A DNA stretch of 64,000 nucleotides. Origin: Fidelibacterota bacterium. GTDB taxonomy: Bacteria > Fidelibacterota > Marinisomatia > Marinisomatales > UBA1611. This document shows positions 25,677 through 63,077 of the stretch, piece by piece; the first letter of the stretch is position 1; each line of letters starts with the position of its first letter. The translations under genes and the position numbers were made by a program. The stretch lies in assembly GCA_018658715.1 (NCBI GenBank), contig JABHUQ010000006.1:12904-76903 (forward strand), given 5' to 3'. The notes under the pieces were generated by a model. The model was not told the DNA's origin and made no database searches. It saw only the letters and a list, made by a program, of their open reading frames with translations.

Positions 25677-25684
25677 GTGTCTGC

Positions 25685-44610: not shown

Positions 44611-44641
44611 TAAAAAAGGGGCAAGTTGCCTTGCCCCTTTT
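44611..44641 (-). terminator. Strong rho-independent terminator closing the minus-strand cassette
   Basis: AAGGGGCAAG-TTGC-CTTGCCCCTT. On the minus strand it is followed by TTTTTTATT, 25 nt after the stop of the 44665 gene. Confidence 0.65.
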
Positions 44642-44664
44642 CTTATTTCATCAAATGAATGATC

Positions 44665-47016
44665 TTATTTCAAGAGCATCATTTTCCCAGTCAAGGACTG
44701 CTGACCAGCTTCTACTTGATATATGTAGAGACCAGAAGCAACGGATTGACCAAAGTTGTTTGTCCCGTTCCATGAAACCATGTTGGTTCCAGAAGCAAGA
44801 TTACCGCTTTGGAGTGTTGCAATTTCTTCACCTAAAACGGAGAAGATTCTTACAGTCACATCAGAACGTACATTCAAGTTGAATGCAATGTTCGTAGTTG
44901 GGTTAAATGGGTTTGGATAGTTTCCGAGTAACTCAAAAGATTGAGCCAATGGGTTTGTATCTTCATCACCTACGGATGCATACATGTCAGCCCATACTAC
45001 AGCAGAATGCAATGCACCAAATGACTGAGTACCAATCCAATGATATGGTGTTGAGTTTAAGCATAATGGATCAAAGCTAAGGAAAACAGAATTACTTCCA
45101 TTATCATGTGCTTTGTAAGGTCCAGCAGCATACGCTACAGCATCATCAGAAAGAACACCAAAAGTATCAAGAACTGTTGAGTATGCGTTGAATGAGTTGC
45201 TAAAACCATCAACAACATCAACACCGTCTAACCAGTTACTTATGCCTAATTCATAATTAGGGTCATAGTTCAAGACTAATGAATCAGCTAAGAACGAATG
45301 AAGTGCGCCAGAAATTGCATCGCCTTCAACAGCTTCTAATCTAGAAACACCATCTTGGTCTCCGCTTGCACCATAATTAATATCATTATAGTCAGCATCA
45401 ATACCAAGAACGTCATACTGAAAATCGCCTTCAACATAATCAGTGTTTGCCCAACCAGATTGTGCGCCTAACCATTCATCACCAGCTAGGACGTAGTTTT
45501 TACCACCTTCAGCAAACCATGGACCAACAGCTTCACTGTTTATCACAGATGGGCCACCGCCTGTCATTTCTATCACACTTTCGTATGCTCCCAATAGATC
45601 GCTTGTTGCGGCACCATAATTAGCACCATCCCAGAAATCATATGGATGACTTAAGCCGTACATATAGTATCCTGCAATAAAGGACCCATATTCAGCACTA
45701 TTATAGAAAAACAGTGTTGGTTGTGTTGCTTGGAAAATACTGTAGTACCATTCTGTAGTTTCTGTTTCATTTCCTTCAACGTCTGATGCAGTAATCCACC
45801 AATATATTTCTGTACCAGCATCCATTCCAGGAATTTGGCTAGAATATGTACCATCACCATTATCTGTCATATCAAATGTTTGGTATGCATGAGATGGCAT
45901 TGGGTATACATGTAATACTGCAGAGCCAACACCAGCAGCTCCACCAGATGGGTTATCATCTGCAATAGTAGCTACCACGTCACGTGCATCATTTGACATA
46001 GTTGTGTAAAGAGGTGTAACGCCGCTAATAACTGGAGCACGATCACCTGTTAGTTCAACCGCTAAATTATAGCGAATGAGCCAATGACGAATATGCCAAC
46101 CACCGTTACCAGAAGTACCACCACATCCTGCATAGAACTTCATGAAAGCCCATGGAGAAACAACACCGTTACCTTCTGCATAGAAGAAACCAGTTGCTTC
46201 ATCGTCGCCGCCACCGTCACCAGTGTAAGCAACCATAATACCAACCCATTCACCAGCTAGTAATGCTGGTTCGGAACCAAAGTCTGAAAAGTTGATCCAA
46301 TGGTCAGTAATTCCATCCACAGCATAATCGCCGTGTGTTTCTGGTGTCATTGTTACAGCAGTAACACCGTCTGGCCATACAAGACCCATAACAGGAACTC
46401 CGGGAGGTCCAAAACCTGCCTCGAATCCCAATGGATCTGTTGCGCCTTCTGCAACAGCATTAGCACCATCTGAACAAATACCAACTGTTCCTCCAGCTGT
46501 GTATTCTGAGCCTTCAATAGAAACAGAACCATCTTCAGCCATATCATATCCACCGATCCATCCGTCACCATCAACAGCGTCACTGCTATATGCAGTTTCA
46601 CCATCAGCGGTCATTGGATAAGAAAGCTTATGGACAGACACAGAAAATTCCTGATCGCCAGTACCCCATTCATAAATGGGAATATTTACACCCTTTAGGG
46701 TCGCATCAGCTGGTAATTGATACATCATTAACATAGCATCACCTGGAGATTGGATGAATTGACCACCCCAACCTACTTGTGAATCATATGACATTGTATC
46801 AGCAGTACCACGGTTGAAACGCTGAGTGTATTCCTTACGAGGAAGTACAATCGGTCCCGTTAAAGCATCTGCTTCACCTGTTGAGCCGTTCTCTGAATAA
46901 TGCAATCCTAAGTGGCTTCCAGCGCGGTCTACCGAACCAGATTTTGCTCCTTCTGCAGAAAGAGTCCATGTTAGGACGAGCATTACGCTTAAGAACTTTA
47001 TCACATTCTTACTCAT
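44665..47016 (-). CDS. Secreted ~783-aa protein of unknown function with a T9SS type-A C-terminal sorting domain
   Basis: AAGGAG ribosome-binding site upstream of the ATG at 47016 and signal peptide MSKNVIKFLSVMLVLTWTLSAEG. C-terminus NYPNPFNPTTNIAFNL...VRIFSVLGEEI...SGLYIYQVEAGQQSLTGKMMLLK. The body is G/D/A/Y-rich with no catalytic motif seen. Confidence 0.7.
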   Translation of the reverse strand: MSKNVIKFLSVMLVLTWTLSAEGAKSGSVDRAGSHLGLHYSENGSTGEADALTGPIVLPRKEYTQRFNRGTADTMSYDSQVGWGGQFIQSPGDAMLMMYQLPADATLKGVNIPIYEWGTGDQEFSVSVHKLSYPMTADGETAYSSDAVDGDGWIGGYDMAEDGSVSIEGSEYTAGGTVGICSDGANAVAEGATDPLGFEAGFGPPGVPVMGLVWPDGVTAVTMTPETHGDYAVDGITDHWINFSDFGSEPALLAGEWVGIMVAYTGDGGGDDEATGFFYAEGNGVVSPWAFMKFYAGCGGTSGNGGWHIRHWLIRYNLAVELTGDRAPVISGVTPLYTTMSNDARDVVATIADDNPSGGAAGVGSAVLHVYPMPSHAYQTFDMTDNGDGTYSSQIPGMDAGTEIYWWITASDVEGNETETTEWYYSIFQATQPTLFFYNSAEYGSFIAGYYMYGLSHPYDFWDGANYGAATSDLLGAYESVIEMTGGGPSVINSEAVGPWFAEGGKNYVLAGDEWLGAQSGWANTDYVEGDFQYDVLGIDADYNDINYGASGDQDGVSRLEAVEGDAISGALHSFLADSLVLNYDPNYELGISNWLDGVDVVDGFSNSFNAYSTVLDTFGVLSDDAVAYAAGPYKAHDNGSNSVFLSFDPLCLNSTPYHWIGTQSFGALHSAVVWADMYASVGDEDTNPLAQSFELLGNYPNPFNPTTNIAFNLNVRSDVTVRIFSVLGEEIATLQSGNLASGTNMVSWNGTNNFGQSVASGLYIYQVEAGQQSLTGKMMLLK

Positions 47017-47110
47017 TTTAACTCCTTTGTTTGTTTTTCTTGCTTGCAAGCAACAATAAATAGGAATACAACCTGTATTTTGCCCCACTTATTGCGCCTT
47101 CTACCTTTGT

Positions 47111-48211
47111 TTAAAAGGCGAAGTTTAAAGATAACCAGCTTACTCCACTGAAAAATTCAGCAGATCTATATGCATAGTCTACGGATAAACCTACACCTAA
47201 TAGTTTGGAAAAGTCCAGTCCAAATCCAAAAGACGGACCCCAGATAAAATCTTCAGTTTTTTGTTCCCAAACAACATCATCGCTATCGTCAGTAGTTCCT
47301 TCAATACCATCGTCTCCGAATGGTTCTGGGTCTTGAGCTAATGCCATTCCGCCGCGGAGATAAAGCATTCCCATGGTTTTGACTTCAGCGCCAAAGCGAT
47401 ATTCATCAAATGAAAAATTATTATTTAGAAAGGATGCTGCTAAGATAACGTCATTTCCGGAAAAGGACTTATTATACGCAACACCCATCTCAAATGTTGT
47501 GGGCATTTCAAATTGAGAAGTTCCAACTTGACGTGGCTCGTTGGGAGTCCCCGGGTTTGTTCCCACAGGCTGATGAAATTCATCTAAATCTGATCCACTG
47601 AATTTCATATTTGTTCCAAGGTTTCTGATCGATGCCCCAAGTTGAATATTACTAATATTGTATTGAACACCTGCGTCTACAGCAAAACCCGTAGCTGTTT
47701 CTCGCATAATAGATTCATTCACAATTTTAAACTCAGTCCCAAAACGAATTCGATCTGTTACGCGACGTGCATACATAGCGCCCAGCGTAAAGAATCGAGG
47801 TGAATACATTTCACCTGTTCCATCCGGTTGGAATGCAGTTGTAACTGGGATATCACCAAAGTCGAATGACTTTAAAGATACACCAAACATATTTGCGCCC
47901 ACAGAAGTGGCTACAATACCGTAAGACATATCAATGTCAGCAATCCAATTACTTTGAGAGAACATAGCTTCTCCACTACTTTCCATACCGCCTAGACCAG
48001 CAATATTCCAATGGGCAGCTTCAACACCTGTAATACCGGCAACATAAGCACCTGACATTGCTGTCCCTCGTGAACCGAGTGGCATTAATAGTTCCTGAGC
48101 TCCTGCTGTTCCGCGACGAGCCTTACTCCCCGCTTCTACTGCTGTACTCAGAAAAAAGATTCCGAGCAGAAGCCCTATAGATACATATTTGTAATAAATA
48201 GATTTATACAT
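47111..48211 (-). CDS. PorV/PorQ-family (FadL-like) outer membrane beta-barrel, paralog 1
   Basis: GGAGGA ribosome-binding site before the ATG at 48211 and a signal peptide. GTAGAQELLMPLGSRGTAMSGAYVAGITGVEAAHWNIAGLG matches the family N-terminal signature. C-terminal ...LNFAF. Confidence 0.65.
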   Translation of the reverse strand: MYKSIYYKYVSIGLLLGIFFLSTAVEAGSKARRGTAGAQELLMPLGSRGTAMSGAYVAGITGVEAAHWNIAGLGGMESSGEAMFSQSNWIADIDMSYGIVATSVGANMFGVSLKSFDFGDIPVTTAFQPDGTGEMYSPRFFTLGAMYARRVTDRIRFGTEFKIVNESIMRETATGFAVDAGVQYNISNIQLGASIRNLGTNMKFSGSDLDEFHQPVGTNPGTPNEPRQVGTSQFEMPTTFEMGVAYNKSFSGNDVILAASFLNNNFSFDEYRFGAEVKTMGMLYLRGGMALAQDPEPFGDDGIEGTTDDSDDVVWEQKTEDFIWGPSFGFGLDFSKLLGVGLSVDYAYRSAEFFSGVSWLSLNFAF

Positions 48212-48226
48212 TCTATCCTCCAATGC

Positions 48227-51200
48227 TTAAAATAAGTCCAGCCGCTCTTCAGGCTGGAAGATTGCAAGTTTCATAATTTTTTCTCCAATGGCAGAACCAT
48301 TCTCATCTGATACGGTGATATAAACGATGTATACACCGCTTGCTACAGGAATACCATTGCTATTTCTCAAATCCCAAACAGCGCGATTACCACCCGAAGC
48401 GTTTTCACTTTCAACGCTATGGTCAAATCGTGTTACCAAGTCGCCAGAAATAGTATAAATCCGAATTGTAGATGTACCTACACCTAAATGAGTGAAATAT
48501 ACCATACGTCCCTGCGGATTACTTTCTTCTGGATTTTGTCCAAAATATGGATTTGGAAATACATTGATTTTTTCAATATCAAGTGTGGCATCTGCGCTAG
48601 CCATTGTACCAGTGGGGGTAAATTCATATTTGTCCACACCCTGGACTAATGGGTTGTCAAATACAATTTGGATTTGATCCCCACCCTGCCAAACAGTGTT
48701 ATTTCTATCAAAATTTAATACCCATCCTGTTATGTCTGCGTTATTTTGTGGATGAATTGGTGAAACAGAGCTTGCTTCATAATCCGTATAAACAGGAATA
48801 TATTGGAAATTTGCTGAAAAAGCCCAATGGGTTGCCGTGGTGTCATCATTGTATAACGCACCCTCAACTAGACTGGATGGTTTTGATGCCCCCGCAACCT
48901 GATATGTTAGGACATTAATTTGTCTCTCTTCGCCGTTTTCAACATCCCACAACTCAAATGGAATCATAATTGTATCTGGGTCCATATTCCCACGTAATGT
49001 TTGAATATTGGCATAGGATGCAATTGAACCTCCATCTGTGAACCTAAGTTCAAGATCTCTTTGTTTGTCGTCAACAGTTGGGACACCATTCGCAGGTGAG
49101 AAACCAGCATTAGCTCCATAGGCATCAAATAAGAAATTCATATAATCTGCCCAAGCGCTAAATCCACCTGATCCTAATCCTGAAAAAGCAAGTGCAGAAT
49201 TAGCTGTATCTGCCACAATTTCAGTTGCGCTAGAATAATTATTCACATCCCATAAACCATCTTGAAATGTTAAAATAAATCCATCTGTAATTGTGTTATT
49301 AATATAGACACCATCTGGATCAATACCACCATTCGCATCTTTTAGAGTTGTAAAATAGTCTTGTGTAATTGGGAAAAGAGTATCTTCAGCAACAACTTCT
49401 CCACCACTAGATAAAACCCACTTTGAACGAGTACTATCTGCTTCTTCGACAGTAACGCTATATAATTCACCCGTTAATAAATAAGGGTCAATAACATTTG
49501 GATATATAGATGTACCCGCAGTCCCCGCTGTATGGGTGTATTCTATATTTTCGTTATTACCAATAGCTAAATCAGTCCCAACTCCTGGTGGACTTGGTAT
49601 TGCCGTATACGAATAAATTGGACTTTCAATCACACGTTTTGCTGCGTTGGGGTCGTAAGCATAGGCTGTTACAGCAAAATAATACTCACGATAATTGATT
49701 AATAAGCCACCATCAACATAATCTTGATCAATTTCAATAAAGTGATCAATACCTGTGTCTGTTCCAAATTGAGATGGAAATTCTAATAATTCACCTGTTT
49801 CGTCATCTAAGCCCTGATCGATGATTAATTTAATATCATCAACTAAGTCATATGTTGTAATTCGTTTCCAAGGACCTACGGCAGATTCACCTTGGTAAAT
49901 ATTATACCCTTGAAATCCATAGCCAGCACAAGAATATTCTTCTACTTTTTCTGCGATTTCTTCGAACGAAAGAACTACTTTTCGATCCATTTGAGATATA
50001 ACGATCTCTGGAGCAGGTGGAGAACATACATTAAAGTTTGCATCGAAGGCACCTTGAGCAAAATTATCATAATATTTCATTTTTGTAATAGACTTTTGCC
50101 AATCACCACTTGCAGCAATAATGATAGAGCCAACAACTTCTGCTGTATCGCCCACATTAAATGTAAAAGGACCCGATGTCATCATATAACGACGATCTCC
50201 CTCGGTATTATCTAAATCACCAGCGCCTGTAACAGGGTCCCCTGCGTGACGGAATAATGTTGGTGCGCCTGTACCAGGATCAACAAATTCTTCTCCTGAC
50301 TCACCATTTCTACCATTCATATAGTTCAATGCTTCTTCAGCTGTTTCCGGGTCACCCGCTGATGGGTCACTATTTGTATATTTTGCAAAAGATGTTAAGC
50401 CAAGTCGTTTTTTTCCATTCACTGTTCTGACATAATAACTAGAATCTTGTGACCATGTTAATATAGACGCAGTATCTCCTTCAGATGCCACAAGTGGGCC
50501 TTGAAAGAAATCTGCGCCGGCTGCTGGAACAGCAGCACCATACAACATGTCTGCGCCAGCATTATATGTATAACCAACACTTAATAATGTATCACAGCCG
50601 ACTAAATCGTCACTTGCATCTCCAACATCATCATCATGCCACATAGACACATAGACACTATCTAAATCATCTGTACCTTTATTAATAGCAACCCAGCGAA
50701 CAAACATAATATTTCCCAGGGCGCCTGCTTGGTTAAAACCAAAAACAGACGTTTGAACTTCAACACCCATAGGAACTGTTCCCCATAAATTTTGATGTGT
50801 TGCAGCATCGCCATCATTCATAACATACCAGTGAAACATGTCTCCTAAAATATCAGGATAATCACCATCTTGAATATTATAAACACCATCACCATTTGCA
50901 TCTATCCATGGAGCTCCATCTTCTGCGGGCCAATTTTCAAAATCACTTGTAGGAAAGGATTTTGTTGCAGGCTCTGTAAAAATATTAGCACCATCAATTT
51001 TTGTAATGGGCAATGAAGCACTCATAACACTATAAGTCGCATAGTCATTTTCAAGGAAAGCGTCTAGCTCGGCACGATGGATTTGATAAATATGTCCATC
51101 GCTCGTACCCGACATATTCCCCGGTACAAATTCTGCAGAATACTCAGATGCTGCAGAGCGTACATCGTCTTCCCAAGGTGAATTGCCATCATCTTCATCT

Positions 51201-51520
51201 GATAAGGAAGGGTCATTTGGTCTTGATTTTGCACTTATCATCCAAAGACCAGATTGGAAAATAACAAATTTGCCACTCCCTTTCGGCCATTCAGTTCCTG
51301 AACTTCCTGTTACGTGATAACTTGATACATCGCCATGGTTACCATGTACGGTGGAAATATTATTCCCATCCCACAAGACGTGTTCAGTTACACCGGAATT
51401 TGGAAACATAGACTTGAACAATCCGCTCGCATAGTCTGGGTCTCCCGCTCTATTTGTTGGTTCTGCAGCCATCAGCATTGTACCCATAGCTAACAGAAGA
51501 ATTATTTTTTTAATTTGCAT
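48227..51520 (-). CDS. ~1097-aa secreted protein of unknown function with a T9SS CTD-like C-terminus (giant protein, paralog 1)
   Basis: AGGAGA ribosome-binding site before the ATG at 51520 and signal peptide MQIKKIILLLAMGTMLMAA. FN3-like middle segment. C-terminus INVFPNPYF...IRIYTISGDLV...SGVYIVYITVSDENGSAIGEKIMKLAIFQ. Homologous to 58727..61996. Confidence 0.6.
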   Translation of the reverse strand: MQIKKIILLLAMGTMLMAAEPTNRAGDPDYASGLFKSMFPNSGVTEHVLWDGNNISTVHGNHGDVSSYHVTGSSGTEWPKGSGKFVIFQSGLWMISAKSRPNDPSLSDEDDGNSPWEDDVRSAASEYSAEFVPGNMSGTSDGHIYQIHRAELDAFLENDYATYSVMSASLPITKIDGANIFTEPATKSFPTSDFENWPAEDGAPWIDANGDGVYNIQDGDYPDILGDMFHWYVMNDGDAATHQNLWGTVPMGVEVQTSVFGFNQAGALGNIMFVRWVAINKGTDDLDSVYVSMWHDDDVGDASDDLVGCDTLLSVGYTYNAGADMLYGAAVPAAGADFFQGPLVASEGDTASILTWSQDSSYYVRTVNGKKRLGLTSFAKYTNSDPSAGDPETAEEALNYMNGRNGESGEEFVDPGTGAPTLFRHAGDPVTGAGDLDNTEGDRRYMMTSGPFTFNVGDTAEVVGSIIIAASGDWQKSITKMKYYDNFAQGAFDANFNVCSPPAPEIVISQMDRKVVLSFEEIAEKVEEYSCAGYGFQGYNIYQGESAVGPWKRITTYDLVDDIKLIIDQGLDDETGELLEFPSQFGTDTGIDHFIEIDQDYVDGGLLINYREYYFAVTAYAYDPNAAKRVIESPIYSYTAIPSPPGVGTDLAIGNNENIEYTHTAGTAGTSIYPNVIDPYLLTGELYSVTVEEADSTRSKWVLSSGGEVVAEDTLFPITQDYFTTLKDANGGIDPDGVYINNTITDGFILTFQDGLWDVNNYSSATEIVADTANSALAFSGLGSGGFSAWADYMNFLFDAYGANAGFSPANGVPTVDDKQRDLELRFTDGGSIASYANIQTLRGNMDPDTIMIPFELWDVENGEERQINVLTYQVAGASKPSSLVEGALYNDDTTATHWAFSANFQYIPVYTDYEASSVSPIHPQNNADITGWVLNFDRNNTVWQGGDQIQIVFDNPLVQGVDKYEFTPTGTMASADATLDIEKINVFPNPYFGQNPEESNPQGRMVYFTHLGVGTSTIRIYTISGDLVTRFDHSVESENASGGNRAVWDLRNSNGIPVASGVYIVYITVSDENGSAIGEKIMKLAIFQPEERLDLF

Positions 51521-51552
51521 TGTATTATATCTCCTATTTCCCTGACTCATCA

Positions 51553-55430: not shown

Positions 55431-58400
55431 ATGAAAAAAACATTACTCTTTTTCATTATTTTATCTTTCCTATTTGCTGGTGATACTGGGAAACTAACAG
55501 GTATTATTACCGACATAACAACTGGTGACCCATTAATTGGCGTAAATATCGTTTTAAAAAACACAACAATGGGAACGGCATCCGGCGAAAATGGCAACTA
55601 TTCAATTATTCATATTTCGGCCGCAAAATACACTGTTTCTGCATCATATATTGGATACAAAACAATTATTGTTCAGGATGTAATTATAAATGCAAACCAT
55701 AACACACAACTGAATTTTAAAATGGCTATATCTGCCGTCGAAGGTGAAGAAATAACCGTGGAAGCCGAAAGGTCGATTATTGTTCGAGATCAAACGGCAA
55801 CAACTATTACAATGGAGGGAGAAAAACTAGAAAATATGCCTATCAATTCTTTCGAAGATGCAATGACGACTATGGCTGGTGTTATCGAAAATGATAATTC
55901 AGAAAGTGGAATCCATTTTAGGGGTGGCCGTACAGGAGAAGTAACATTTCTTGTAGACGGATTTGTTGTGGAAGATGCATTATTTGGAGATATGGGAATG
56001 GATGTTTCTAGAAATGCTATTTCTGAATTATCCGTTATCACCGGGGCATTTAATGCTGAGTATGGAGAAGCTATGAGTGGGGTGGTAAATATTGTTACAA
56101 AAGAAGGTCGCTCAGATTATTCCTGGAACATCCGCGGCGTAACAGACAATCTGTTCAATAGTGATTTTAATGATTGGGATCAGTCTCGTATAGAAGGCAC
56201 ATTAAGTGGGCCATTACTTCCTTTTAAGCCTGATTGGGCTACCTTTTTTGTTTCTGCAGATCGCTTAAATACACGAACGTCTCTTTGGAAAAATAAATTA
56301 CCTTTCAATGTGTGGAAAGATGTAAATGATGATGGAATAGATGGGAATTGGGTTGATTTAAACGAAGATGGTATAGAAGATGAAAATGAAATAGATACAC
56401 TAGCTATGGCTGATATTAATCTAGATGGAGTTCCGGATATACTAAAAGAAGGAACCATTGAACAAACAGGGGCTTATCGTCTTCAAGATCGCATCAATGC
56501 TAAAGTAGTCCTACACCCTGTGTCTAAGCTTAAGTTAACTATAGGATACAATCAGTTCACCAAAGAATCAAAATCGTTTTCTATGGACTATCGACAAATC
56601 CCTAACCGCAGCGGAATTGATTTTGATAAATCATCTGATTTGCAAATCAAGGCCAGTTATGCTATTTCGGAAAACATGTATATAACAGCACGATATCAAG
56701 ATCATAAAACAGAATCGTGGTATGGTTATGAGCCTCTGTTGACCAAAAACCATGAACTGGAAAGTCGCATTATTGAAATCCCTGAAGACTGGGGTGGTTT
56801 TACTCCAGAAACAGTACCCGCAGGCGATGAATATCTATGGCTAGGATATTATGCCGAACCATATGCGGATATGAATGGGGATGGTGTATGGAGTGTGTAT
56901 TCCGCAGAATGGTGGGACGATGAAAATGGAAATGCTGTATGGGATAATGATGAAACTTATAATGATTGGAATAATGATAGTACATGGAACGTATATAACT
57001 GGGCAGATGACAATCAAAATGGAATTTGGGATGAAGAAGAAGCAATTCTTTCTGATGAATATTGGGATATTCAATCCGATAGCAGATCCACAGATCCAAA
57101 TGAATATGATTGGGGAGTAGATGCTCGACTAAGAGAAGGTGATGCATATGACAACACATCTAATTATGAATTTTATGGCAATTACAATATTTATAATATA
57201 TATGGGGATTCCATTCGAGAAGGCATTTCTACCATGCATGACTACACATGGTACAAATCAAATTATAATAGCTTTGGGGGAGACATCACTTGGCAAGTAA
57301 ATAAAAGGCATCAACTTAAAGCTGGATTTGAGAAAAAGTCTTACGACTTAGCCCGTTTTGCAGCGTACGGAATTGGTGGTGGATATTTTGGTAATTCCGG
57401 TGACCCGTCCTTTATTATGTATGAACATCAACCTGAATCTCAAAGTTGGTATATTCAAGATAAAATTGAATACAATGATGTTGTTGTAAATATTGGTATT
57501 CGAATGGACAAACTAGACCCAAAGAGTCAATACCCGGATCCAACGCGTGAATTAGGGTATTATTACACTGAGAGCGGAGAAACAATTTGGATTGAACCTA
57601 GTGATGTAGGGTCTCTCACAGATGAAGATGTTGATGGATTAGGGTGGGGTTATCTTAATCGTGATGATGATGGAAATATCGTGGGTGGAATGCCTGCGCC
57701 AAATGCTGAAATTAAGAGTCAATTTAGCCCAAGGCTTGGTATTGGATATCCAATAACAGATAAAGTTGCTTTTCACTTTTCTTATGGACATTTTTATCAG
57801 TTTCCGGATTTGTACTACATGTATAATTATGGAAACCAAGAAGGTAATAGCATAGCAGCTCCAGGGTGGTCAGAAAATGCAAATTCTATGGCTCAGAATA
57901 ATAATTTATATGGTAATAATTTATTTCCCTTTCCTTACAATTTATCCGATTGGTATATCCCAGAAGTTGGTAGCCCAAACATAAGCCCTCAGAGATCCGT
58001 TCAATATGAAATGGGACTAAGAACGTGGATTGGTGAACATTATGTGTTGAGCTCCACCTTATATTATAAGGATTTGTTTGATTATGCCGCATCTCGTATA
58101 TATGATGCAGACCCACAGCAATATGCTGTTTTTGAAAATATGGATTATGCAAATTCCCGAGGGTTTGAAATATCGTTGGAAAAACTGTTTTCAAACAATT
58201 ATAGTTGGTATATCAATTATGCTATGGCTCGCGCAGAAGGAAATGCGCCTAATTCATCTTACCATTGGGATGTGGCTTATTTAGAGTCCGTCTATGGGTG
58301 GCGTGATTATAATCGTACATTTACTATGGATTGGGATCAAACGCATACCATAAACCTCGGTGTTGACTATCAACATCCAAAAGGATTGGGAATAAATGTA

Positions 58401-58724
58401 TTAGGAAATATTGGAAGCGGGTTGCCCTACACGCCTACAGATTCCAGAGGGCGTCCTATCGACGAACCCAATTCAGGTCGAATGCCGCCTACTGCAAATT
58501 TCAATATGAAAGCATTTTATGATTTACCTGTGAAAAAAACAAAAGCTCGGATATTTATGGATATTACAAATTTGTTTAATAATCAAAATGTGCTTCGCGT
58601 TTTCGGAAATTCAGGACAACCAGATGTAAACCTAAACCCCAATATATCCGCTATGTACTTGTGGCGTCCATACTATTACAGTTCGCCTAGGCATATTGAA
58701 ATTGGCTTAAGTGTAGGAATGTAA
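55431..58724 (+). CDS. SusC/RagA-like TonB-dependent receptor with an N-terminal carboxypeptidase-regulatory-like domain (paralog 2)
   Basis: GGAGGA 8 nt before the ATG at 55431 (the track start 55377 is unlikely). GKLTGIITDITTGDPLIGVNIVL...YTVSASYIGYKT and a plug domain (IHFRGGRTGEVTFLVDGFVVED). D/N/W-rich inserts. Confidence 0.85.
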   Translation: MKKTLLFFIILSFLFAGDTGKLTGIITDITTGDPLIGVNIVLKNTTMGTASGENGNYSIIHISAAKYTVSASYIGYKTIIVQDVIINANHNTQLNFKMAISAVEGEEITVEAERSIIVRDQTATTITMEGEKLENMPINSFEDAMTTMAGVIENDNSESGIHFRGGRTGEVTFLVDGFVVEDALFGDMGMDVSRNAISELSVITGAFNAEYGEAMSGVVNIVTKEGRSDYSWNIRGVTDNLFNSDFNDWDQSRIEGTLSGPLLPFKPDWATFFVSADRLNTRTSLWKNKLPFNVWKDVNDDGIDGNWVDLNEDGIEDENEIDTLAMADINLDGVPDILKEGTIEQTGAYRLQDRINAKVVLHPVSKLKLTIGYNQFTKESKSFSMDYRQIPNRSGIDFDKSSDLQIKASYAISENMYITARYQDHKTESWYGYEPLLTKNHELESRIIEIPEDWGGFTPETVPAGDEYLWLGYYAEPYADMNGDGVWSVYSAEWWDDENGNAVWDNDETYNDWNNDSTWNVYNWADDNQNGIWDEEEAILSDEYWDIQSDSRSTDPNEYDWGVDARLREGDAYDNTSNYEFYGNYNIYNIYGDSIREGISTMHDYTWYKSNYNSFGGDITWQVNKRHQLKAGFEKKSYDLARFAAYGIGGGYFGNSGDPSFIMYEHQPESQSWYIQDKIEYNDVVVNIGIRMDKLDPKSQYPDPTRELGYYYTESGETIWIEPSDVGSLTDEDVDGLGWGYLNRDDDGNIVGGMPAPNAEIKSQFSPRLGIGYPITDKVAFHFSYGHFYQFPDLYYMYNYGNQEGNSIAAPGWSENANSMAQNNNLYGNNLFPFPYNLSDWYIPEVGSPNISPQRSVQYEMGLRTWIGEHYVLSSTLYYKDLFDYAASRIYDADPQQYAVFENMDYANSRGFEISLEKLFSNNYSWYINYAMARAEGNAPNSSYHWDVAYLESVYGWRDYNRTFTMDWDQTHTINLGVDYQHPKGLGINVLGNIGSGLPYTPTDSRGRPIDEPNSGRMPPTANFNMKAFYDLPVKKTKARIFMDITNLFNNQNVLRVFGNSGQPDVNLNPNISAMYLWRPYYYSSPRHIEIGLSVGM

Positions 58725-58726
58725 AC

Positions 58727-61700
58727 ATGAAAAAATATTTAATCCTTACCTTGTTACTTAATATAACAATCCATGCAGGAAATCCATCAACAGGACTTTC
58801 TAAACGTGAATATTATAATCAATTTATTGCGCCATCAAAAGGGCGTGCTCCGCTTGCTAAACCTGCAGCTTATGACGATAGAAAGCGAAGCGTCCTTGAC
58901 AAGGGGAATATGGTTTTACGTTTATCCAATGCAGCTATTTATGGATACGATCGATGGGGATTAAACCATGAATTCCCTGCGGGGAGTATGATGACAAATG
59001 GGTGTTGTACTTATTACTGGACTCAAGCGCCAATGGTTGGTGCACTTAAAAATGGTGTCCCTTCTGTTTCGGTGGGTGTACGTGGCTCTGTCCGAGATTC
59101 AGAAGAAGAGTTTGAACCTCTACCTGGATATGATGCCGGATATAGCGACACGGATCAAAATATTGGAATTGCATTCAGCGATATGGAACAATCTTGGCCA
59201 GCCCAATGGCCAATTGAAGCAGATCCAACAGGAACATTTGCATCCGTTTTGTATGATGCAAACGGGAATGCAAATGATACACTTTATTTCCCGGGAGTTG
59301 AACCTGAACTTGGACCTGAGGGTTTTCCTGATGCCCCATGTTGGTTGGGTGTTCAGGCAGATAGAGAAGCTTATTTTGTTGTAACAGATAATGACCCAAC
59401 AGAGGGAAATACATATGCCAGCAATAATGGTGTTGGACCGCTCAACGTTAGGATCGATACGTGGGTATTAAATTATGCAAATACCTTTGGAAATGATGGT
59501 CTCATTTTTATTCAAAAAATGACAAATGTGGGAAAAGATACCTTAAGAGATTTATATTTCGGAATTGCGGGCGATCCAGATGCGCCCGAACAAGGAAGTG
59601 CAGAGTGGACAGATGATTTATGTATGCTCATTTCTGCGGATGATCCTCATATTGCAGAAAAATTATCCGATACAACAGATGCTCATTTACTCGAAAATTT
59701 AGCTATCGTTTGGGATCCGGATGATGAATCATCTGGATTTGTTTCATCGGGACTTGGATGGATTGGGCTCAAGTTTCTTGAGTGTACAAAATACAATATG
59801 GATGGGTCAATTCAACCATATGATATTTCAACATTTTATACGTATGAATATAGTGAAGATTCCCAAAGCGATAATGATGCATACAATATACAAATGAGCC
59901 ATGGGATTCAAGAACCTCACAACGTAGAACCTCCAGCGAATGATTTATTCCAAAAACCCTATTCTTATGGCCCCGATATAACGTGGATTATTGCTGCAGG
60001 CGGACCAGAACAAGTGACAACAGATGGTGATACTATTCCTGAAATGGCTGTGGCCCCGGGGGAATTTGTTATTTTTACATTTGCCGATTTTATGGGAATT
60101 AATGAAGCGGATTTATTAAGGAATGCAAAAGTTTTTCAATCGTTATATGACAACAATTGTGCTAGCCCTCAGCCACCAAAACCACCTGTTGTGCACGCTG
60201 TTCCGCAAGATGGAAAGGTGGCATTGTTTTGGGATAATAGAAGCGAGCAATCCATTGATCCTGTCACAGGAAATAATGCATTTCAGGGGTATCGAATTTA
60301 TCGAAGCTCAGATAGAGGAAATACGTGGGGTTCTGTGGTTACAGATTTTAATGGTAACCCAACTGATTTTTATAAACCACTGGCTATTTTTGATAAAATG
60401 GATGGAATGAGCGGAGCCTATGCTATGTCTGATCCGCTCATTTATTATAATTTGGGAAATGATGATGGTATCCAATATTCATATATCGATCAAGACTTGG
60501 TCAATGGTTACGAGTATTGGTATTCAATTTCTGCTTATGATGGACCAGATGATTGGTCTGGCGCTGTTGTAGACCCAATGGAAAATGCAAAGGTAAAAAA
60601 TGCATTTATTGATGGTGATAATACTATTTCTATTGTACCTCAAGGTAAATCTCTTGGGCATGAAATTGGTGATAAAAATATTACACATACCGGGTCTGCA
60701 AATGCCATATTAAATGCGATAGATGCAGAAGCCTTTGTTTTTGAATTTTTAGGTGAAGATGAAGTTAGAGAATCAGATTTTGTAAGTAAAGGTTATACCT
60801 ATTCTGTTGACTTTTTTAATGATGGTGTTGCCATTGATTCTTCGGATGAAAATAGTGCAAACTGGGATACGACCACTTTTCCTTATTGGACCCTTACGAA
60901 TACAACAACCAGCGAAACGATTGTAAATCAGGACCCAGATGTTGAGTCGGGACAAATGAAGTATGTGGTTGATGGATTTATTCCTGTATTTAGTGATGCA
61001 TCGTTTATAGTTAGTGGACCAGACACGGTGTTTCAAACCATATTGGATAGCGTTGCTTCCAATTTAGCATTTATGGGCGGAGGTGCGTCTGGGCCAGATA
61101 ATCCTTCTTGGGGCGGGTTTGTAGATTATTTATATGGTAATTATCCAGCATCAGCAGGCTTTTTTCAACCATCAGGAATTATAAGTTATAAAGAATTGGG
61201 TATAGATTTACAAATTCGCTTCATAGAGTCAGGATCCATCGCTTCTTATTATAATTTAAATATATTAAGAGGAAATGCCGAGCCGGACACGATTCAATTA
61301 CCCATTGAAATTTGGGATACGGAAAACGATCAAAGGTTGAACATCGCAGTGTATCAAGTTGCTGGTAATTCAAAGCCGTCTCCGCCATGGGGAAGAGATA
61401 GTTCCGTTGTGATAGACTCTATTTTCACAGATACTGATACAACATTAGATTCGTCTTGGGCTCACTACTATAAGTTAACGACTAACTTACAAATCATTCC
61501 TATTCATGATGTATATACTGGATCATCTGAACCATATCATTTTGCAAATGATGCAGATTTGATGGGTTGGGTGCTCAATTTTAATACAAATAACTTACAC
61601 TTTAATTATGGGGACATGTTGGATATGGTTTTCCCAAATCCAATTGTACCAGGAGAAGATCAATTTGAAATTATTACCACGGAAGATGGGACTTCGCCTG

Positions 61701-61996
61701 ACTTAGATTTAAGTGAAATTTTAGTCGTCCCAAATCCTTATGTGGTAACTTCAGCTTATGAGTATATACAATATCAAAAGGAAATTCAGTTTACCCGACT
61801 TCCTGAAGAATGTATGATTCGTATTTATAATTCTGCCGGAGAATTAGTTCAAATCCTAAACCATAAAAATGGAAGTCCTGGTTATCGAGGAGCTAGTATC
61901 GAAGCATGGGATTTACGAACATATAATAATCAAGATGTAGCTTTTGGGGTTTATATCTTCCATGTGGTATCTGGGGGATTGGAAAGTTTGCGGTGA
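58727..61996 (+). CDS. 1089-aa secreted protein of unknown function with a CTD-like C-terminus (giant protein, paralog 2)
   Basis: The start is 2 nt after the TBDR stop. Signal peptide present. Blocks shared with paralog 1 include IRFIESGSIASYYNLNILRGNAEPDTIQLPIEIWDTENDQRLNIAVYQVAGNSKPS. CTD-like end VVPNPYV...IRIYNSAGELV...FGVYIFHVV. Confidence 0.6.
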   Translation: MKKYLILTLLLNITIHAGNPSTGLSKREYYNQFIAPSKGRAPLAKPAAYDDRKRSVLDKGNMVLRLSNAAIYGYDRWGLNHEFPAGSMMTNGCCTYYWTQAPMVGALKNGVPSVSVGVRGSVRDSEEEFEPLPGYDAGYSDTDQNIGIAFSDMEQSWPAQWPIEADPTGTFASVLYDANGNANDTLYFPGVEPELGPEGFPDAPCWLGVQADREAYFVVTDNDPTEGNTYASNNGVGPLNVRIDTWVLNYANTFGNDGLIFIQKMTNVGKDTLRDLYFGIAGDPDAPEQGSAEWTDDLCMLISADDPHIAEKLSDTTDAHLLENLAIVWDPDDESSGFVSSGLGWIGLKFLECTKYNMDGSIQPYDISTFYTYEYSEDSQSDNDAYNIQMSHGIQEPHNVEPPANDLFQKPYSYGPDITWIIAAGGPEQVTTDGDTIPEMAVAPGEFVIFTFADFMGINEADLLRNAKVFQSLYDNNCASPQPPKPPVVHAVPQDGKVALFWDNRSEQSIDPVTGNNAFQGYRIYRSSDRGNTWGSVVTDFNGNPTDFYKPLAIFDKMDGMSGAYAMSDPLIYYNLGNDDGIQYSYIDQDLVNGYEYWYSISAYDGPDDWSGAVVDPMENAKVKNAFIDGDNTISIVPQGKSLGHEIGDKNITHTGSANAILNAIDAEAFVFEFLGEDEVRESDFVSKGYTYSVDFFNDGVAIDSSDENSANWDTTTFPYWTLTNTTTSETIVNQDPDVESGQMKYVVDGFIPVFSDASFIVSGPDTVFQTILDSVASNLAFMGGGASGPDNPSWGGFVDYLYGNYPASAGFFQPSGIISYKELGIDLQIRFIESGSIASYYNLNILRGNAEPDTIQLPIEIWDTENDQRLNIAVYQVAGNSKPSPPWGRDSSVVIDSIFTDTDTTLDSSWAHYYKLTTNLQIIPIHDVYTGSSEPYHFANDADLMGWVLNFNTNNLHFNYGDMLDMVFPNPIVPGEDQFEIITTEDGTSPDLDLSEILVVPNPYVVTSAYEYIQYQKEIQFTRLPEECMIRIYNSAGELVQILNHKNGSPGYRGASIEAWDLRTYNNQDVAFGVYIFHVVSGGLESLR

Positions 61997-62000
61997 TCAA

Positions 62001-63077
62001 ATGAAGAAATTATTATTTATCTTAACAACGATTGCGGTCCTAAACGGACAATTTGATAATGCATCAACATCGGCGGCTAATTTTTTAAAGGTGGAAGTGG
62101 GCGGGCAGGCCGCAGCAATGGGTGGTGCCTTCACGGCACAAGTAAATGATGTGTCGGCTTTATTTTGGAATCCAGCCGGAATAACTGGAATCGGAAAATC
62201 GGAAGTAATGGTAAGCCAAACAGAGTGGATTGGGGATATTAACCATAATTATCTTGCTGCCGCAGTTAAGTTTGGTAGTCAAGGTTATCTTGGATTAAGT
62301 ATTAACCAAATGGCTTATGGCAACATGACCCGTACTACAGAATTTTCACCTGAAGGAGAGGGCACTTTTACCGCGAATGATTTATCGCTAGGCTTAGCTT
62401 ACGGCACCCGAATCAGCGACAAATTTTCAACGGGTATTCAATTCAAAATTATTCGCGAAACGATCTCCTTTTCGAGTGCTAATGCGGTAGCTGTTGATGT
62501 TGGTTCTCAATATACAACATCATTTTCGGGGTTAAAAATTGGAATGGCAATAACAAACTTCGGAAGCAAAATGACACTATCAGGCACCGACCAAAAAGTG
62601 GATATTGATGCTTATGAAGATTTAAATGGCAATCCAGATGTTATTGCTCAACTTGGCACAGAACAATGGTCGCTCCCAATGACATTTAAAGTTGGGCTCT
62701 CCTTTTCTCCTGTTGGGCCAGATGCGCTTATAAAACAAGAAAAGTTGAGCTTAACTGTGAATGCAGAATACAGTGACCCAAGAGATTTTAATCCAATTTA
62801 TATGGCTGGAGCCGAACTGACAATTATGAAATTGCTTTATCTCAGAGCGGGTGTTAAAAATACTTTTTTGAGATATCCCGATGATTTAGATGATGTATCA
62901 GATAAAGCCTTATCCGACTATGAAGAAGGTAAATATATTAATCGATTTTCAATGGGGTTTGGATTATCCTCAAAGAATTTCCCATTCATTCCCTATCGCT
63001 TAAATCTGGATTATGCCTATTCGGATTTAGGGTTATTGGGTTGGGTTCCGAGACTAACGTTAAGGATTAATTTTTGA
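62001..63077 (+). CDS. PorV/PorQ-family (FadL-like) outer membrane beta-barrel, paralog 2
   Basis: ATG at 62001 (MKKLLFILTTIAVLNG signal peptide). TSAANFLKVEVGGQAAAMGGAFTAQVNDVSALFWNPAGI matches the family signature. C-terminal ...LTLRINF. Confidence 0.7.
   Translation: MKKLLFILTTIAVLNGQFDNASTSAANFLKVEVGGQAAAMGGAFTAQVNDVSALFWNPAGITGIGKSEVMVSQTEWIGDINHNYLAAAVKFGSQGYLGLSINQMAYGNMTRTTEFSPEGEGTFTANDLSLGLAYGTRISDKFSTGIQFKIIRETISFSSANAVAVDVGSQYTTSFSGLKIGMAITNFGSKMTLSGTDQKVDIDAYEDLNGNPDVIAQLGTEQWSLPMTFKVGLSFSPVGPDALIKQEKLSLTVNAEYSDPRDFNPIYMAGAELTIMKLLYLRAGVKNTFLRYPDDLDDVSDKALSDYEEGKYINRFSMGFGLSSKNFPFIPYRLNLDYAYSDLGLLGWVPRLTLRINF

What the first reader, a model, noticed from the sequence alone, without database searches (positions are those of the whole stretch)
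44665..63077. Mirror-image pair of paralogous cassettes: SusC-like TonB receptor, ~1100-aa T9SS-CTD protein, PorV-like barrel (candidate SusD-less surface capture/uptake system)
What the sequence shows:
- Two arms diverge from a 233-bp region at about 55.3 kb.
- Each arm has the same outward gene order: a TBDR with a carboxypeptidase-regulatory N-domain (1214 and 1098 aa), a ~1100-aa signal-peptide protein ending in a T9SS CTD-like domain, and a ~365-aa PorV/PorQ-family barrel.
- Genes within each arm are packed 2-33 nt apart.
- All three gene pairs are clearly homologous but diverged. Examples: AGDAGKVVGTVVDKESGSPLPGVNVML vs AGDTGKLTGIITDITTGDPLIGVNIVL; LRFTDGGSIASYANIQTLRGNMDPDTIMIPFELWDVENGEERQINVLTYQVAGASKPS vs IRFIESGSIASYYNLNILRGNAEPDTIQLPIEIWDTENDQRLNIAVYQVAGNSKPS.
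- The triad has therefore been kept as a unit through duplication.

Established knowledge:
- In Bacteroidetes, SusC-type TBDRs work with a co-encoded SusD lipoprotein lid.
- PorV binds T9SS CTD cargo at the outer membrane.

Inference: no SusD-like gene is present here. A T9SS-exported giant protein, held by a dedicated PorV-like barrel, may act as the surface capture partner of the TBDR. I do not know of this three-component arrangement as a described system.
Basis: partly seen in the sequence, partly recalled or inferred. Interest (0 to 1): 0.85.

Follow-up and report, generated by a model that had tools for sequence, protein, structure and literature searches.

The report
TonB receptor, T9SS protein, PorV-like barrel
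Two head-to-head copies of a three-gene outer-membrane cassette (a TonB-dependent receptor, a ~1100-residue all-beta secreted protein and a PorV-like barrel) are real, and the same gene order recurs in many uncultured FCB-group phyla; it is probably an undescribed way of giving an uptake channel a surface partner, though no physical complex has been shown.

Summary
Window 44665-63077 carries two divergent cassettes around a 233-bp spacer. Each encodes a TonB-dependent receptor (CarboxypepD_reg domain, Plug, barrel), a ~1100-aa signal-peptide protein with no family model, and a PorV/PorQ-family barrel. All three pairs are paralogous.

Corrections:
- The left cassette is a four-gene operon. It has an extra 783-807-aa T9SS-CTD protein and ends at a strong terminator.
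- The right big protein has lost its last CTD strand through a 22-bp deletion specific to this window.
- The receptors are not SusC/RagA members. They share only the Oar/SusC-type N-terminal architecture.

Conservation: the order receptor, big protein, barrel is found in 68 of 89 homologues examined, across at least ten named lineages. Most exceptions are contig ends. The big-protein family has about 5,500 clusters at 50% identity. The three genes co-diverge as a set.

Structure: the big protein models as a chain of beta-sandwich and FN3 domains with no enzyme fold. Its CTD is closest to those of PorU and PorZ, which stay bound to PorV and PorQ.

Best reading (about 0.45): a TonB-powered importer whose surface partner is exported by the T9SS and held by a dedicated barrel. 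No interface, substrate or expression data were obtained. No paper describing it was found.

The parts
44612..44643 (.). Bidirectional intrinsic-terminator-like hairpin (14-bp stem, 6 GC pairs, T tails) just after the fourth gene. It marks the end of the left operon.
44665..47016 (-). Fourth gene of the left cassette: a 783-aa protein (807 aa as the longest ORF, to 47088). It has a signal peptide and a canonical T9SS type A CTD, and the N-terminal ~700 aa have no family. It is conserved at this position in Marinimicrobia L-type cassettes.
   Evidence: (PF18962 29.8 bits vs 27; TIGR04183 35 vs 23)
47111..48223 (-). Left PorV/PorQ-family outer-membrane barrel (370 aa).
   Evidence: NF033709 129 bits vs 90; PorV, PorQ and PorV2 equivalogs below cut-off
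48227..51520 (-). Left big protein (1097 aa from MQIKK). It has an SPI-type signal peptide, an N-terminal beta-supersandwich, an FN3-like domain, further beta-sandwiches, a C-terminal CTD-like sandwich and a conserved tail ending PEERLDLF.
   Evidence: (pLDDT 88.8)
51553..55197 (-). Left TonB-dependent receptor (1214 aa): CarboxypepD_reg N-terminal extension, TonB-box-like DEVVVVA, Plug, barrel, and five DxDxDG-type motifs in its inserts.
55198..55430 (.). 233-bp AT-rich divergent intergenic region, presumed to hold the promoters of both cassettes.
   Evidence: the sigma-70 scan was not above chance
55431..58724 (+). Right TonB-dependent receptor (1097 aa; the ORF opens at 55377). Same architecture as the left one, with six DxDxDG-type motifs.
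58727..61996 (+). Right big protein (1089 aa here, 1099 aa in identical public copies). It is homologous to the left one over its full length at profile level.
61978..61986 (+). Single remaining copy of the 9-bp repeat ATTGGAAAG. It marks a 22-bp deletion relative to L090, L091 and L087. The deletion frameshifts the last 12 codons and removes the conserved final CTD strand GKFAVIK.
62001..63077 (+). Right PorV/PorQ-family barrel (358 aa).
   Evidence: NF033709 180 bits vs 90; PorQ 109 vs 220; PorV 6h3i, E 1.6e-5

Best explanation
Each cassette encodes a three-part outer-membrane uptake module.
- The TBDR is the TonB-energised import channel. It has an Oar/SusC-type architecture: CarboxypepD_reg extension, TonB box, plug and 22-strand barrel.
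- The ~1100-aa all-beta protein is exported through Sec and then the type IX secretion system. It is not released. Its retained C-terminal domain keeps it at the cell surface, bound non-covalently to the co-encoded PorV/PorQ-family barrel, as PorU is held by PorV and PorZ by PorQ.
- From that position its N-terminal supersandwich and FN3 array bind a ligand and present it to the neighbouring receptor. This is the job done by SusD, SGBP or RagB lipoproteins in Bacteroidota and by TbpB-type lipoproteins in Proteobacteria.
- In Marinimicrobia a second T9SS-CTD protein (the fourth gene) joins the left module.

Shown here: gene content, domain families, paralogy, operon-like packing, conservation of the gene order across phyla, co-divergence of the three genes, and the non-enzymatic beta-sandwich fold of the big protein.

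Inferred: T9SS export, CTD retention on the barrel, contact with the receptor, the direction of transport, and the ligand. The ligand is unknown. A glycan or peptide polymer is a guess, based on the fold resemblance to non-catalytic N-domains of carbohydrate-active enzymes and on the lifestyle of these phyla.
For: - Domains: both TBDRs have Plug and barrel above the Pfam cut-offs, plus the CarboxypepD_reg extension. TonB-box-like DEVVVVA and EEITVEA sit between the extension and the plug. Both barrels pass PorV_fam, and the right one matches solved PorV.
- Conservation: the gene order receptor, big protein, barrel, on one strand with gaps of about -4 to 164 nt, is seen in KSB1, Zixibacteria, Ignavibacteriales, a 'Bacteroidetes' MAG and Marinimicrobia. 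It holds for 68 of 89 homologues from 83 loci. Ten more are cut by contig ends, and the assessable side agrees in nine.
- Co-divergence: L-type big proteins always sit with L-type receptors and barrels, and R-type with R-type. This holds even though the window's L set is closer to those of other phyla than to its own R set.
- Fold: the big protein model (pLDDT 88.8, pTM 0.79) is all-beta, with an N-terminal supersandwich, FN3 domains and a C-terminal sandwich.
- Fold matches: Foldseek finds only non-catalytic beta domains, namely GH94/GH116 N-domains, macroglobulin domains and FN3 receptor ectodomains.
- CTD: the best sequence and fold matches of the CTD are PorU (6za2) and PorZ (5m11). Their CTDs are retained and stay bound to PorV and PorQ (PMC10202324).
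- Precedent: cognate cargo-shuttle gene pairs are established for type B CTDs with PorP/SprF (PMC12618676).
- T9SS in these organisms: canonical type A CTD proteins sit in the cassette and in 25 of 66 related loci.
- Expression: Marinimicrobia TBDTs are detected in ocean metaproteomes, but this evidence is generic and not specific to this receptor (PMC5776962).
Against: - No interaction was tested or modelled.
- The CTD of the big proteins is below the curated HMM cut-offs (TIGR04183 20.8 vs 23 for the left protein, none for the right).
- Recurrent neighbours are envelope genes rather than degradative enzymes: a GWxTD protein, lipid A acyltransferase, heptosyltransferase, M23 peptidase and a SurA-like PPIase.
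- The N-terminal domain of the L-type protein is strongly conserved between phyla, unlike the diversifying binding proteins of polysaccharide utilisation loci.
- Ten homologues occur without a receptor or barrel. They are tandem arrays in L033, L034 and L081, second copies in L014 and L058, and L037.
- The right cassette's big protein lacks its last CTD strand in this window.
- Whether genomes carrying the cassette always carry T9SS core genes was not tested.
Confidence: 0.45

Rival explanations
1. The functional unit is only a cargo-shuttle pair. The big protein is a surface adhesin or coat protein secreted by the T9SS, and the PorV-like barrel is its private shuttle or anchor. The receptor gene is co-transcribed for regulatory or unrelated reasons and does not form a complex with the big protein.
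For: - Cognate shuttle barrels next to their T9SS cargo are established (PMC12618676; PMC10202324).
- The big protein looks like a receptor ectodomain or adhesin-like chain of FN3 and beta-sandwich domains.
- Big-protein copies exist without a receptor.
- No catabolic genes are linked.
Against: - The receptor gene is immediately upstream in essentially every assessable locus across at least ten lineages.
- The receptor co-diverges by type with the other two genes.
- It is separated from the big-protein gene by only about 2-90 nt in most loci.
- Conservation this tight over such distances is hard to explain without a joint function.
- The orphan big-protein copies also lack a barrel, so they do not show a pair-only unit either.
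Confidence: 0.2
2. The receptor works outwards. Like Myxococcus Oar, which has the same CarboxypepD_reg-Plug-barrel architecture and is needed for TonB-dependent secretion of the protease PopC, this TBDR exports the big protein. The PorV-like barrel then receives the big protein's C-terminal domain at the surface. The cassette would be a self-contained small secretion and anchoring device.
For: - The domain architecture is that of the Oar subclass (PMC6434023).
- The big protein's CTD is atypical and below the T9SS HMM cut-offs.
- L-type proteins carry an extra conserved C-terminal tail not seen in canonical CTDs.
- The cassette is self-contained and lies next to envelope genes.
Against: - The CTD still has the type A motifs (PNPY, GxY, and a terminal K-x-x-x-[IV] strand) and matches the PorU and PorZ CTDs.
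- NCBI names relatives as T9SS type A sorting-domain proteins.
- Canonical T9SS cargo is encoded in the same operon.
- A ~120-kDa, mostly beta-sandwich protein would have to pass unfolded through a 22-strand barrel.
- Oar itself is a single precedent with an unknown mechanism.
Confidence: 0.1
3. The cassette is a housekeeping envelope component rather than a nutrient system. It could be an outer-membrane biogenesis or LPS- and surface-layer-related complex, in which a FadL/PorV-like barrel holds a large extracellular protein, as BamG holds BamH in the Bacteroidota BAM complex.
For: - Recurrent neighbours are lipid A acyltransferase (13 loci), GT9 heptosyltransferase (11), M23 peptidase (8) and a GWxTD protein (20).
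- The window has a SurA-like PPIase and an M23 peptidase next to the left arm.
- The big protein's N-domain is highly conserved across phyla.
- The BamG-BamH precedent is a PorV-like barrel that binds a surface protein through its loops (PMC12578637).
Against: - The LPS-gene synteny is concentrated in Ignavibacteria and Melioribacter loci and may be inherited gene order.
- The barrels hit BamG only marginally (18.9 bits vs a cut-off of 250).
- A plugged TonB-dependent receptor has no known role in envelope assembly.
- Two or more diverged copies per genome (this window; L064 and L081 come from one MAG) fit transport specificity better than a single housekeeping machine.
Confidence: 0.1

Closest known systems
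SusC/SusD (RagA/RagB) transporter pairs and 'utilisomes' of Bacteroidota
   Same: A TonB-dependent barrel with a CarboxypepD_reg-type N-terminal extension is co-encoded, directly upstream, with a large surface-exposed partner. Multiple diverged paralogous sets occur per genome.
   Different: - The receptors fail the SusC/RagA model (64.6 vs 368 bits, or no hit). In the PDB their profile is closest to Cir, PhuR and YncD-type barrels.
- The partner is not a helical TPR-like lipoprotein. It is a 1100-aa all-beta protein with an SPI signal peptide and a T9SS-type CTD.
- A third gene, the PorV-like barrel, is obligatory.
- No CAZymes or hybrid sensors are consistently linked.
T9SS attachment-complex pairs PorU-PorV and PorZ-PorQ (Porphyromonas gingivalis)
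   Same: A PorV/PorQ-family barrel is paired with a large T9SS substrate whose CTD most resembles those of PorU and PorZ. Those CTDs are retained and serve as the anchor to the barrel (PMC10202324).
   Different: - The big protein has neither the PorU peptidase fold nor the PorZ beta-propellers. Only the C-terminal ~90 aa match.
- The barrels are below the PorV and PorQ equivalog cut-offs.
- The pair is fused into an operon with a TonB-dependent receptor and is duplicated.
Type B CTD cargo with cognate PorP/SprF shuttle (SprB-SprF and others, Flavobacterium johnsoniae)
   Same: A secreted surface protein and a dedicated outer-membrane barrel needed for its delivery and localisation are genetically adjacent (PMC12618676).
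   Different: - The CTD here is type A-like, not type B (CHU_C and type B models not met).
- The barrel belongs to the PorV/PorQ family, not to PorP/SprF (PF11751 16 bits vs 22.3).
- The barrel gene lies downstream of the cargo gene.
- A TBDR is part of the unit.
Oar TonB-dependent transporter of Myxococcus xanthus
   Same: The same subclass architecture: CarboxypepD_reg extension, Plug, barrel (PMC6434023).
   Different: Oar is implicated in export of PopC. It is not described there with a PorV-like barrel or a CTD-bearing partner. Sequence relatedness to Oar was not tested here.
BamG-BamH of the Bacteroidota BAM complex
   Same: A 14-strand FadL/PorV-like barrel holds a large extracellular protein through its loops (PMC12578637).
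   Different: The match to the BamG model is negligible. There are no BamA or BamD genes nearby, and the partner barrel is a plugged TBDR.

Membership tests
TonB-dependent receptor (generic) | Plug domain (PF07715) and TonB-dependent barrel (PF00593) above the curated cut-offs | tested here: met
   Left: Plug 37.6 bits vs 23.9, barrel 84.5 vs 27. Right: Plug 37.5, barrel 88.4.
TonB-dependent receptor (generic) | TonB box N-terminal to the plug | tested here: inconclusive
   DEVVVVA (left) and EEITVEA (right) lie between the CarboxypepD_reg domain and the plug. This is a motif seen by eye only.
SusC/RagA family (TIGR04056) | Full-length match to the family model above its cut-off | tested here: not met
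   The right TBDR scores 64.6 bits vs 368.25 and matches only model positions 2-209. The left TBDR gives no hit; the family profile finds SusC in the PDB only through its isolated N-terminal domain (9hfj).
SusC/RagA family (TIGR04056) | Adjacent SusD/RagB-family gene | tested here: not met
   None of the seven cassette proteins hits a SusD family. The downstream gene product is all-beta.
Oar subclass of TBDTs (architecture class) | N-terminal extension with PF13620/PF13715 followed by Plug and barrel | tested here: met
   (both TBDRs). The class is defined in PMC6434023.
PorV/PorQ family (NF033709) | Match above the subfamily cut-off (90 bits) | tested here: met
   129.1 bits (left) and 179.7 bits (right), both full length.
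PorV proper (NF033710) / PorQ proper (NF033711) | Match above the equivalog cut-offs (250 / 220 bits) | tested here: not met
   PorV: 43 (left) and 69 (right). PorQ: 54 (left) and 109 (right). Pfam PorV: 25.1 vs 27 for the right barrel.
T9SS type A C-terminal sorting domain (TIGR04183 / PF18962) | HMM match above cut-off at the extreme C-terminus | tested here: inconclusive
   Left big protein: TIGR04183 20.8 vs 23, no PF18962 hit. Right big protein: no hit, and its last strand is deleted. Fourth gene: met (35 vs 23; PF18962 29.8 vs 27). Some relatives are named T9SS type A sorting-domain proteins by NCBI.
T9SS type A C-terminal sorting domain (TIGR04183 / PF18962) | C-terminal ~80-90-aa beta-sandwich fold | tested here: met
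   The AF2 model has a seven-strand sandwich at residues ~1007-1087. Foldseek and HMM matches are to the CTD-bearing PorZ 5m11 and PorU 6za2.
T9SS type A C-terminal sorting domain (TIGR04183 / PF18962) | T9SS-dependent secretion; presence of T9SS core genes in the genome | not testable with these tools
   Only a 64-kb window and loci with 8-10-kb flanks are held. No T9SS core gene was seen in the window ORFs scanned.
Type B CTD + PorP/SprF shuttle pair | PorP/SprF family barrel (PF11751) and type B / CHU_C CTD | tested here: not met
   PF11751 16.1 bits vs 22.3 for the left barrel. There is no CHU_C hit in the big proteins.
Polysaccharide utilisation locus | SusC/D pair with linked CAZymes and a sensor/regulator | tested here: not met
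   No SusD and no CAZyme lie in the cassettes. Recurrent neighbours are envelope genes. Reg_prop and LytTR regulators each appear in 7 of 66 loci, in overlapping but not identical sets.

The most novel reading that the evidence does not exclude
Non-Bacteroidota FCB phyla (Marinimicrobia/Fidelibacterota, Ignavibacteriota, KSB1, Zixibacteria, Eisenbacteria, Latescibacterota, Calditrichota and others) lack SusD. These phyla, and some Rhodothermales, may instead equip a large class of TonB-dependent transporters with an extracellular partner that is delivered by the type IX secretion system and clamped to a private PorV/PorQ-family barrel. This would be a third architectural solution for bipartite TBDT systems, and a new physiological role for T9SS and PorV paralogues in nutrient uptake by abundant uncultured marine and sediment bacteria.
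Probability: 0.35. Interest if true: 0.8.

Novelty: new variant of a known kind. Interest (0 to 1): 0.65.

Why it matters
- TonB-dependent transporters are among the most expressed proteins of marine heterotrophs. How the many Oar/SusC-type transporters of non-Bacteroidota FCB phyla recognise substrates is unknown.
- The big-protein family is large. About 5,500 clusters at 50% identity score E <= 1e-30, and at least 577 species-level genomes carry it. It has no Pfam or NCBIfam model and is annotated 'hypothetical'.
- If the three proteins form one machine, that would link two systems usually studied apart, T9SS cargo anchoring and TonB-dependent import.
- It would also give a function to PorV/PorQ paralogues outside the secretion apparatus.
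- It would provide a genomic marker, the three-gene cassette, for predicting surface-exposed uptake systems in MAGs of Marinimicrobia, Ignavibacteriota, KSB1 and others.
- MAGs assigned to Melioribacter carry the cassette. That genus has cultured members, so genetics or biochemistry may be within reach.

Tried and rejected
- Family searches. Pfam and NCBIfam on the big proteins, whole or as halves at E <= 5, gave only weak CTD or FlgD_ig hits and no domain for residues 1-980.
- PDB sequence searches. The big-protein profile found only the PorU and PorZ CTDs. The left TBDR as a single sequence found nothing. The fourth gene found only a CTD.
- Foldseek on both models gave no enzyme fold and no close structural relative (TM <= 0.17 on the query).
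- Paired model of barrel plus CTD. I prepared 69 paired barrel + linker + CTD chimeras for an AF2 interface test.
- A sigma-70 promoter scan of the divergent spacer was no better than shuffles.
- Literature. Ten searches covered Marinimicrobia, Ignavibacteria or Melioribacter with TonB and T9SS, PorV-like with TonB, SusD with PorV, GWxTD, and the phrase 'PorV PorQ family'. None found a description of the cassette.
- The listing of cluster members on ten homologues returned no organism or product names.
- Dockerin idea rejected. The DxDxDG motifs in the TBDR inserts are not a family feature. They are absent from 57 of 69 family members, and there is no dockerin HMM hit.
- PorZ or PorU orthology rejected. 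Only the C-terminal ~90 aa of the big protein match them.

Full report
**What is there**

The region holds seven long ORFs.

| Arm | Strand | Gene | Coordinates | Length |
|---|---|---|---|---|
| Left | - | TonB-dependent receptor | 51553-55197 | 1214 aa |
| Left | - | Big protein | 48227-51520 | 1097 aa from MQIKK; 1108 aa as the longest ORF |
| Left | - | Barrel | 47111-48223 | 370 aa |
| Left | - | Fourth gene | 44665-47016 | 783 aa; 807 aa as the longest ORF |
| Right | + | TonB-dependent receptor | 55431-58724 | 1097 aa; a GGAGGA precedes the ATG |
| Right | + | Big protein | 58727-61996 | 1089 aa |
| Right | + | Barrel | 62001-63077 | 358 aa |

- The spacer 55198-55430 is 233 bp.
- Both receptors pass the Pfam cut-offs for CarboxypepD_reg/CarbopepD_reg_2, Plug and the TonB barrel.
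- Both barrels pass the NCBIfam PorV/PorQ family model (129 and 180 bits against 90). They do not pass the PorV, PorQ or PorV2 equivalogs.
- The big proteins have no Pfam domain. Their only hits are weak, to the C-terminal ends of PorZ and PorU and, for the left one, to the T9SS sorting domain (20.8 bits against 23).
- The pairs are paralogous: 31% identity and E 9e-64 for the big proteins, E 2e-42 for the receptors, E 3e-40 for the barrels.
- BLASTP and a family HMM align only the C-terminal ~640 residues of the big proteins. A profile-profile comparison aligns them over 885 columns (probability 100, E 2e-110). They are therefore homologous throughout.

**Corrections to the observation**

- The left arm has four genes. 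The fourth encodes a protein with a canonical type A T9SS CTD (PF18962 29.8 vs 27; TIGR04183 35 vs 23).
  - It follows the barrel gene in at least eight other Marinimicrobia loci.
  - A 14-bp-stem bidirectional terminator at 44612-44643 comes only after it.
- The right big protein is damaged in this window.
  - Otherwise identical public copies (P0121; loci L090, L091) and an 89% relative (L087) are 1099 aa and end ...GNEHIGKFAVIK (GKEHIGKFAVIK in the 89% relative).
  - The window lacks 22 bp between two copies of ATTGGAAAG. The protein ends ...ESLR and loses the final CTD strand, which is conserved in the relatives examined.
- 'SusC-like' holds only for the architecture.
  - The SusC/RagA model scores 64.6 bits against 368 for the right receptor, over the N-terminal 210 positions only. 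The left receptor gives no hit.
  - A profile of 33 cassette receptors finds Cir, PhuR, PqqU and YncD in the PDB. It matches SusC only through its isolated N-terminal domain.
  - The architecture is that of the Oar subclass of TBDTs (PMC6434023).

**Conservation elsewhere**

- Best hits name the organism as Marinimicrobia, also called Fidelibacterota or Neomarinimicrobiota.
- Homologues of the left big protein occur in many lineages: KSB1, Zixibacteria, Ignavibacteria and Melioribacter, Eisenbacteria, Latescibacterota, Calditrichaceae, Rhodothermales, GN15 and Handelsmanbacteria MAGs.
An exhaustive HMMER search finds 5,465 clusters at 50% identity with E <= 1e-30.
- In eight loci from five lineages with called genes, the order is receptor, big protein, barrel on one strand. 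Gaps run from -4 to about 164 nt.
- My own count covered 89 homologues in 83 non-duplicate loci:
  - 68 have both neighbours;
  - 10 are cut by a contig end, and the visible side agrees in 9;
  - 1 is a split gene;
  - 10 lack both neighbours. These are tandem arrays in L033, L034 and L081, second copies in L014 and L058, and L037.
- The three genes co-segregate by type. L-type big proteins in other phyla sit with receptors and barrels that score higher to the window's left set. R-type sets, found only in Marinimicrobia/Fidelibacterota, are R-type in all three genes.
  - The duplication therefore appears old, and the set has diverged as a unit.
- The head-to-head pairing itself is kept only in close relatives (L087, L090, L091). 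It is absent in more distant Marinimicrobia (L006, L088).

**The big protein**

- AlphaFold2 on a 64-sequence alignment gives a confident model (pLDDT 88.8, pTM 0.79). Its parts are:
  - a signal peptide;
  - a ~430-residue beta-supersandwich;
  - one long helix;
  - an FN3-like domain;
  - further beta-sandwiches;
  - a seven-strand C-terminal sandwich.
- Foldseek finds no close relative (TM <= 0.17 on the query). The matches are non-catalytic N-terminal domains of GH94 and GH116 enzymes, macroglobulin domains, PorZ and PorU.
- The right paralogue models less well (pLDDT 70). It gives FN3 receptor ectodomains and the same GH94-type N-domain.
- The protein therefore looks like a binding or scaffolding ectodomain, not an enzyme.
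- L-type proteins carry a conserved tail after the last CTD strand, [QM]-E-x-[QE]-x-L-D-x-[YF]. The last residue is aromatic in 53 of 66. Canonical CTDs and the R-type proteins lack this tail. I have no tested explanation for it.

**Surroundings**

- Flanking genes in the window are housekeeping: MgtE, a GT2, DHquinase II, an M23 peptidase and a SurA-like PPIase to the left of the cassettes.
- Across 66 related loci the recurrent neighbours are:

| Neighbour | Loci (of 66) |
|---|---|
| Other T9SS-CTD proteins | 25 |
| GWxTD-domain protein | 20, in several phyla |
| Lipid A acyltransferase | 13 |
| GT9 heptosyltransferase | 11 |
| M23 peptidase | 8 |
| Reg_prop sensor | 7 |
| LytTR regulator | 7 |

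- Single loci show a peptidase S9 with a PTR2 transporter (L004) or an M6 peptidase with a CTD (L005).
- This does not look like a polysaccharide utilisation locus, and it gives no clear substrate.

**How it most likely works**

- PorU and PorZ are T9SS substrates whose CTDs are not cleaved and keep them bound to PorV and PorQ. The same review proposes that cognate PorV-like barrels protect CTDs from cleavage (PMC10202324).
- Type B cargo needs adjacent PorP/SprF shuttles (PMC12618676).
- In the Bacteroidota BAM complex, a PorV-like barrel (BamG) holds a surface protein through its loops (PMC12578637).
- By analogy, the most economical model is this:
  - the big protein is exported by the T9SS;
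  - it stays on the cognate barrel through its PorU/PorZ-like CTD;
  - it serves the co-encoded, co-diverging TonB-dependent importer as an extracellular partner.
- The anatomy is shown. Every step of the mechanism is inferred. I put this model at about 0.45.
- The rivals are:
  - a cargo-shuttle pair whose link to the receptor is not physical (0.2);
  - Oar-like export of the big protein through the receptor (0.1; PMC6434023);
  - a housekeeping envelope role, suggested by the LPS and envelope neighbours (0.1).

**Novelty**

- The parts belong to known kinds: a TBDT with a surface partner, and T9SS cargo with a cognate barrel.
- Their fusion into one conserved, phylum-spanning, duplicated unit is not described in anything I could find in ten full-text searches.
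- The big-protein family has no model in Pfam or NCBIfam.
- I file it as a new variant of a known kind.

**Limits**

- No interaction, localisation, substrate or cassette-specific expression evidence was obtained.
- Presence of T9SS core genes in carrier genomes could not be tested with the sequence held.
- The neighbourhood count rests on the best 80 genome loci plus a few metagenome loci. It used my own ORF calls and phmmer assignments.

Noticed in passing
window 61978-61986 (within 58727-61996): There is a 22-bp deletion between two 9-bp direct repeats (ATTGGAAAG), relative to the otherwise identical contigs L090 and L091 and the 89% relative L087. It frameshifts the right big protein and removes its conserved last CTD strand (GKFAVIK). 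In intact copies the stop overlaps the barrel gene's start (ATGA). It could be a strain variant, an assembly slip or loss of the secretion signal.
   Followed up: yes
window 44665-47016 and 44612-44643: A fourth gene in the left operon encodes a 783-aa protein with a canonical T9SS type A CTD and an otherwise unknown fold. The family appears largely restricted to Marinimicrobia/Fidelibacterota (all named hits). Some relatives carry dockerin and cohesin domains (P0394, P0451, P0469). A strong bidirectional terminator follows it.
   Followed up: partly
window 48227-48256 (C-terminus of the left big protein); L001-L086: L-type big proteins carry a conserved 9-10-residue tail after the CTD, [QM]-E-x-[QE]-x-L-D-x-[YF]. 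The final residue is aromatic in 53 of 66, and the model gives the tail low confidence. R-type proteins and canonical CTDs lack it. It may be a docking peptide for the cognate barrel.
   Followed up: partly
window 51553-55197 and 55431-58724: Both receptors carry 5-6 DxDxDG calcium-loop-like motifs in long inserts between the plug and the recognisable barrel. Such motifs are absent from 57 of 69 receptors of the same family in other lineages, and the highest counts are in the window's own receptors.
   Followed up: partly
L001, L015, L016, L019-L022, L029, L038, L039, L048, L051, L052, L054, L058, L061, L066, L070, L079, L082 (mostly downstream of the barrel gene; 3 of 22 copies upstream): A ~450-aa GWxTD-domain protein (TIGR04514, function unknown, no literature found) follows the three-gene cassette in 20 of 66 loci from several phyla. 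It may be a further component. It is not present next to the window's cassettes.
   Followed up: partly
L033, L034, L081: These loci hold tandem arrays of two or three big-protein homologues (854-1349 aa) with no adjacent receptor or PorV-like barrel. The family is therefore not strictly tied to the cassette.
   Followed up: partly
window 48237-48258: A 7-bp-stem hairpin with a T-rich tail lies at the very end of the left big-protein gene, just before the barrel gene. It could modulate the relative expression of downstream genes.
   Followed up: no
window 30683-31156: A 157-aa ORF matches only the first 139 of 340 positions of glycoside hydrolase family 53 (E 1.9e-38). It looks like a truncated or fragmented galactanase gene.
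   Followed up: no
window 24370-26482: A MotA/ExbB-family gene and a MotB_plug/OmpA-family gene lie next to a DUF4352 gene. This stator-like pair could serve a flagellar, Tol or Ton-type motor.
   Followed up: no
window 43285-44559 and 42555-43295: A SurA/PrsA-like PPIC-type peptidyl-prolyl isomerase lies directly beyond the left operon's terminator and an M23 peptidase gene lies beyond that. The same order is seen in the Marinimicrobia locus L006.
   Followed up: partly
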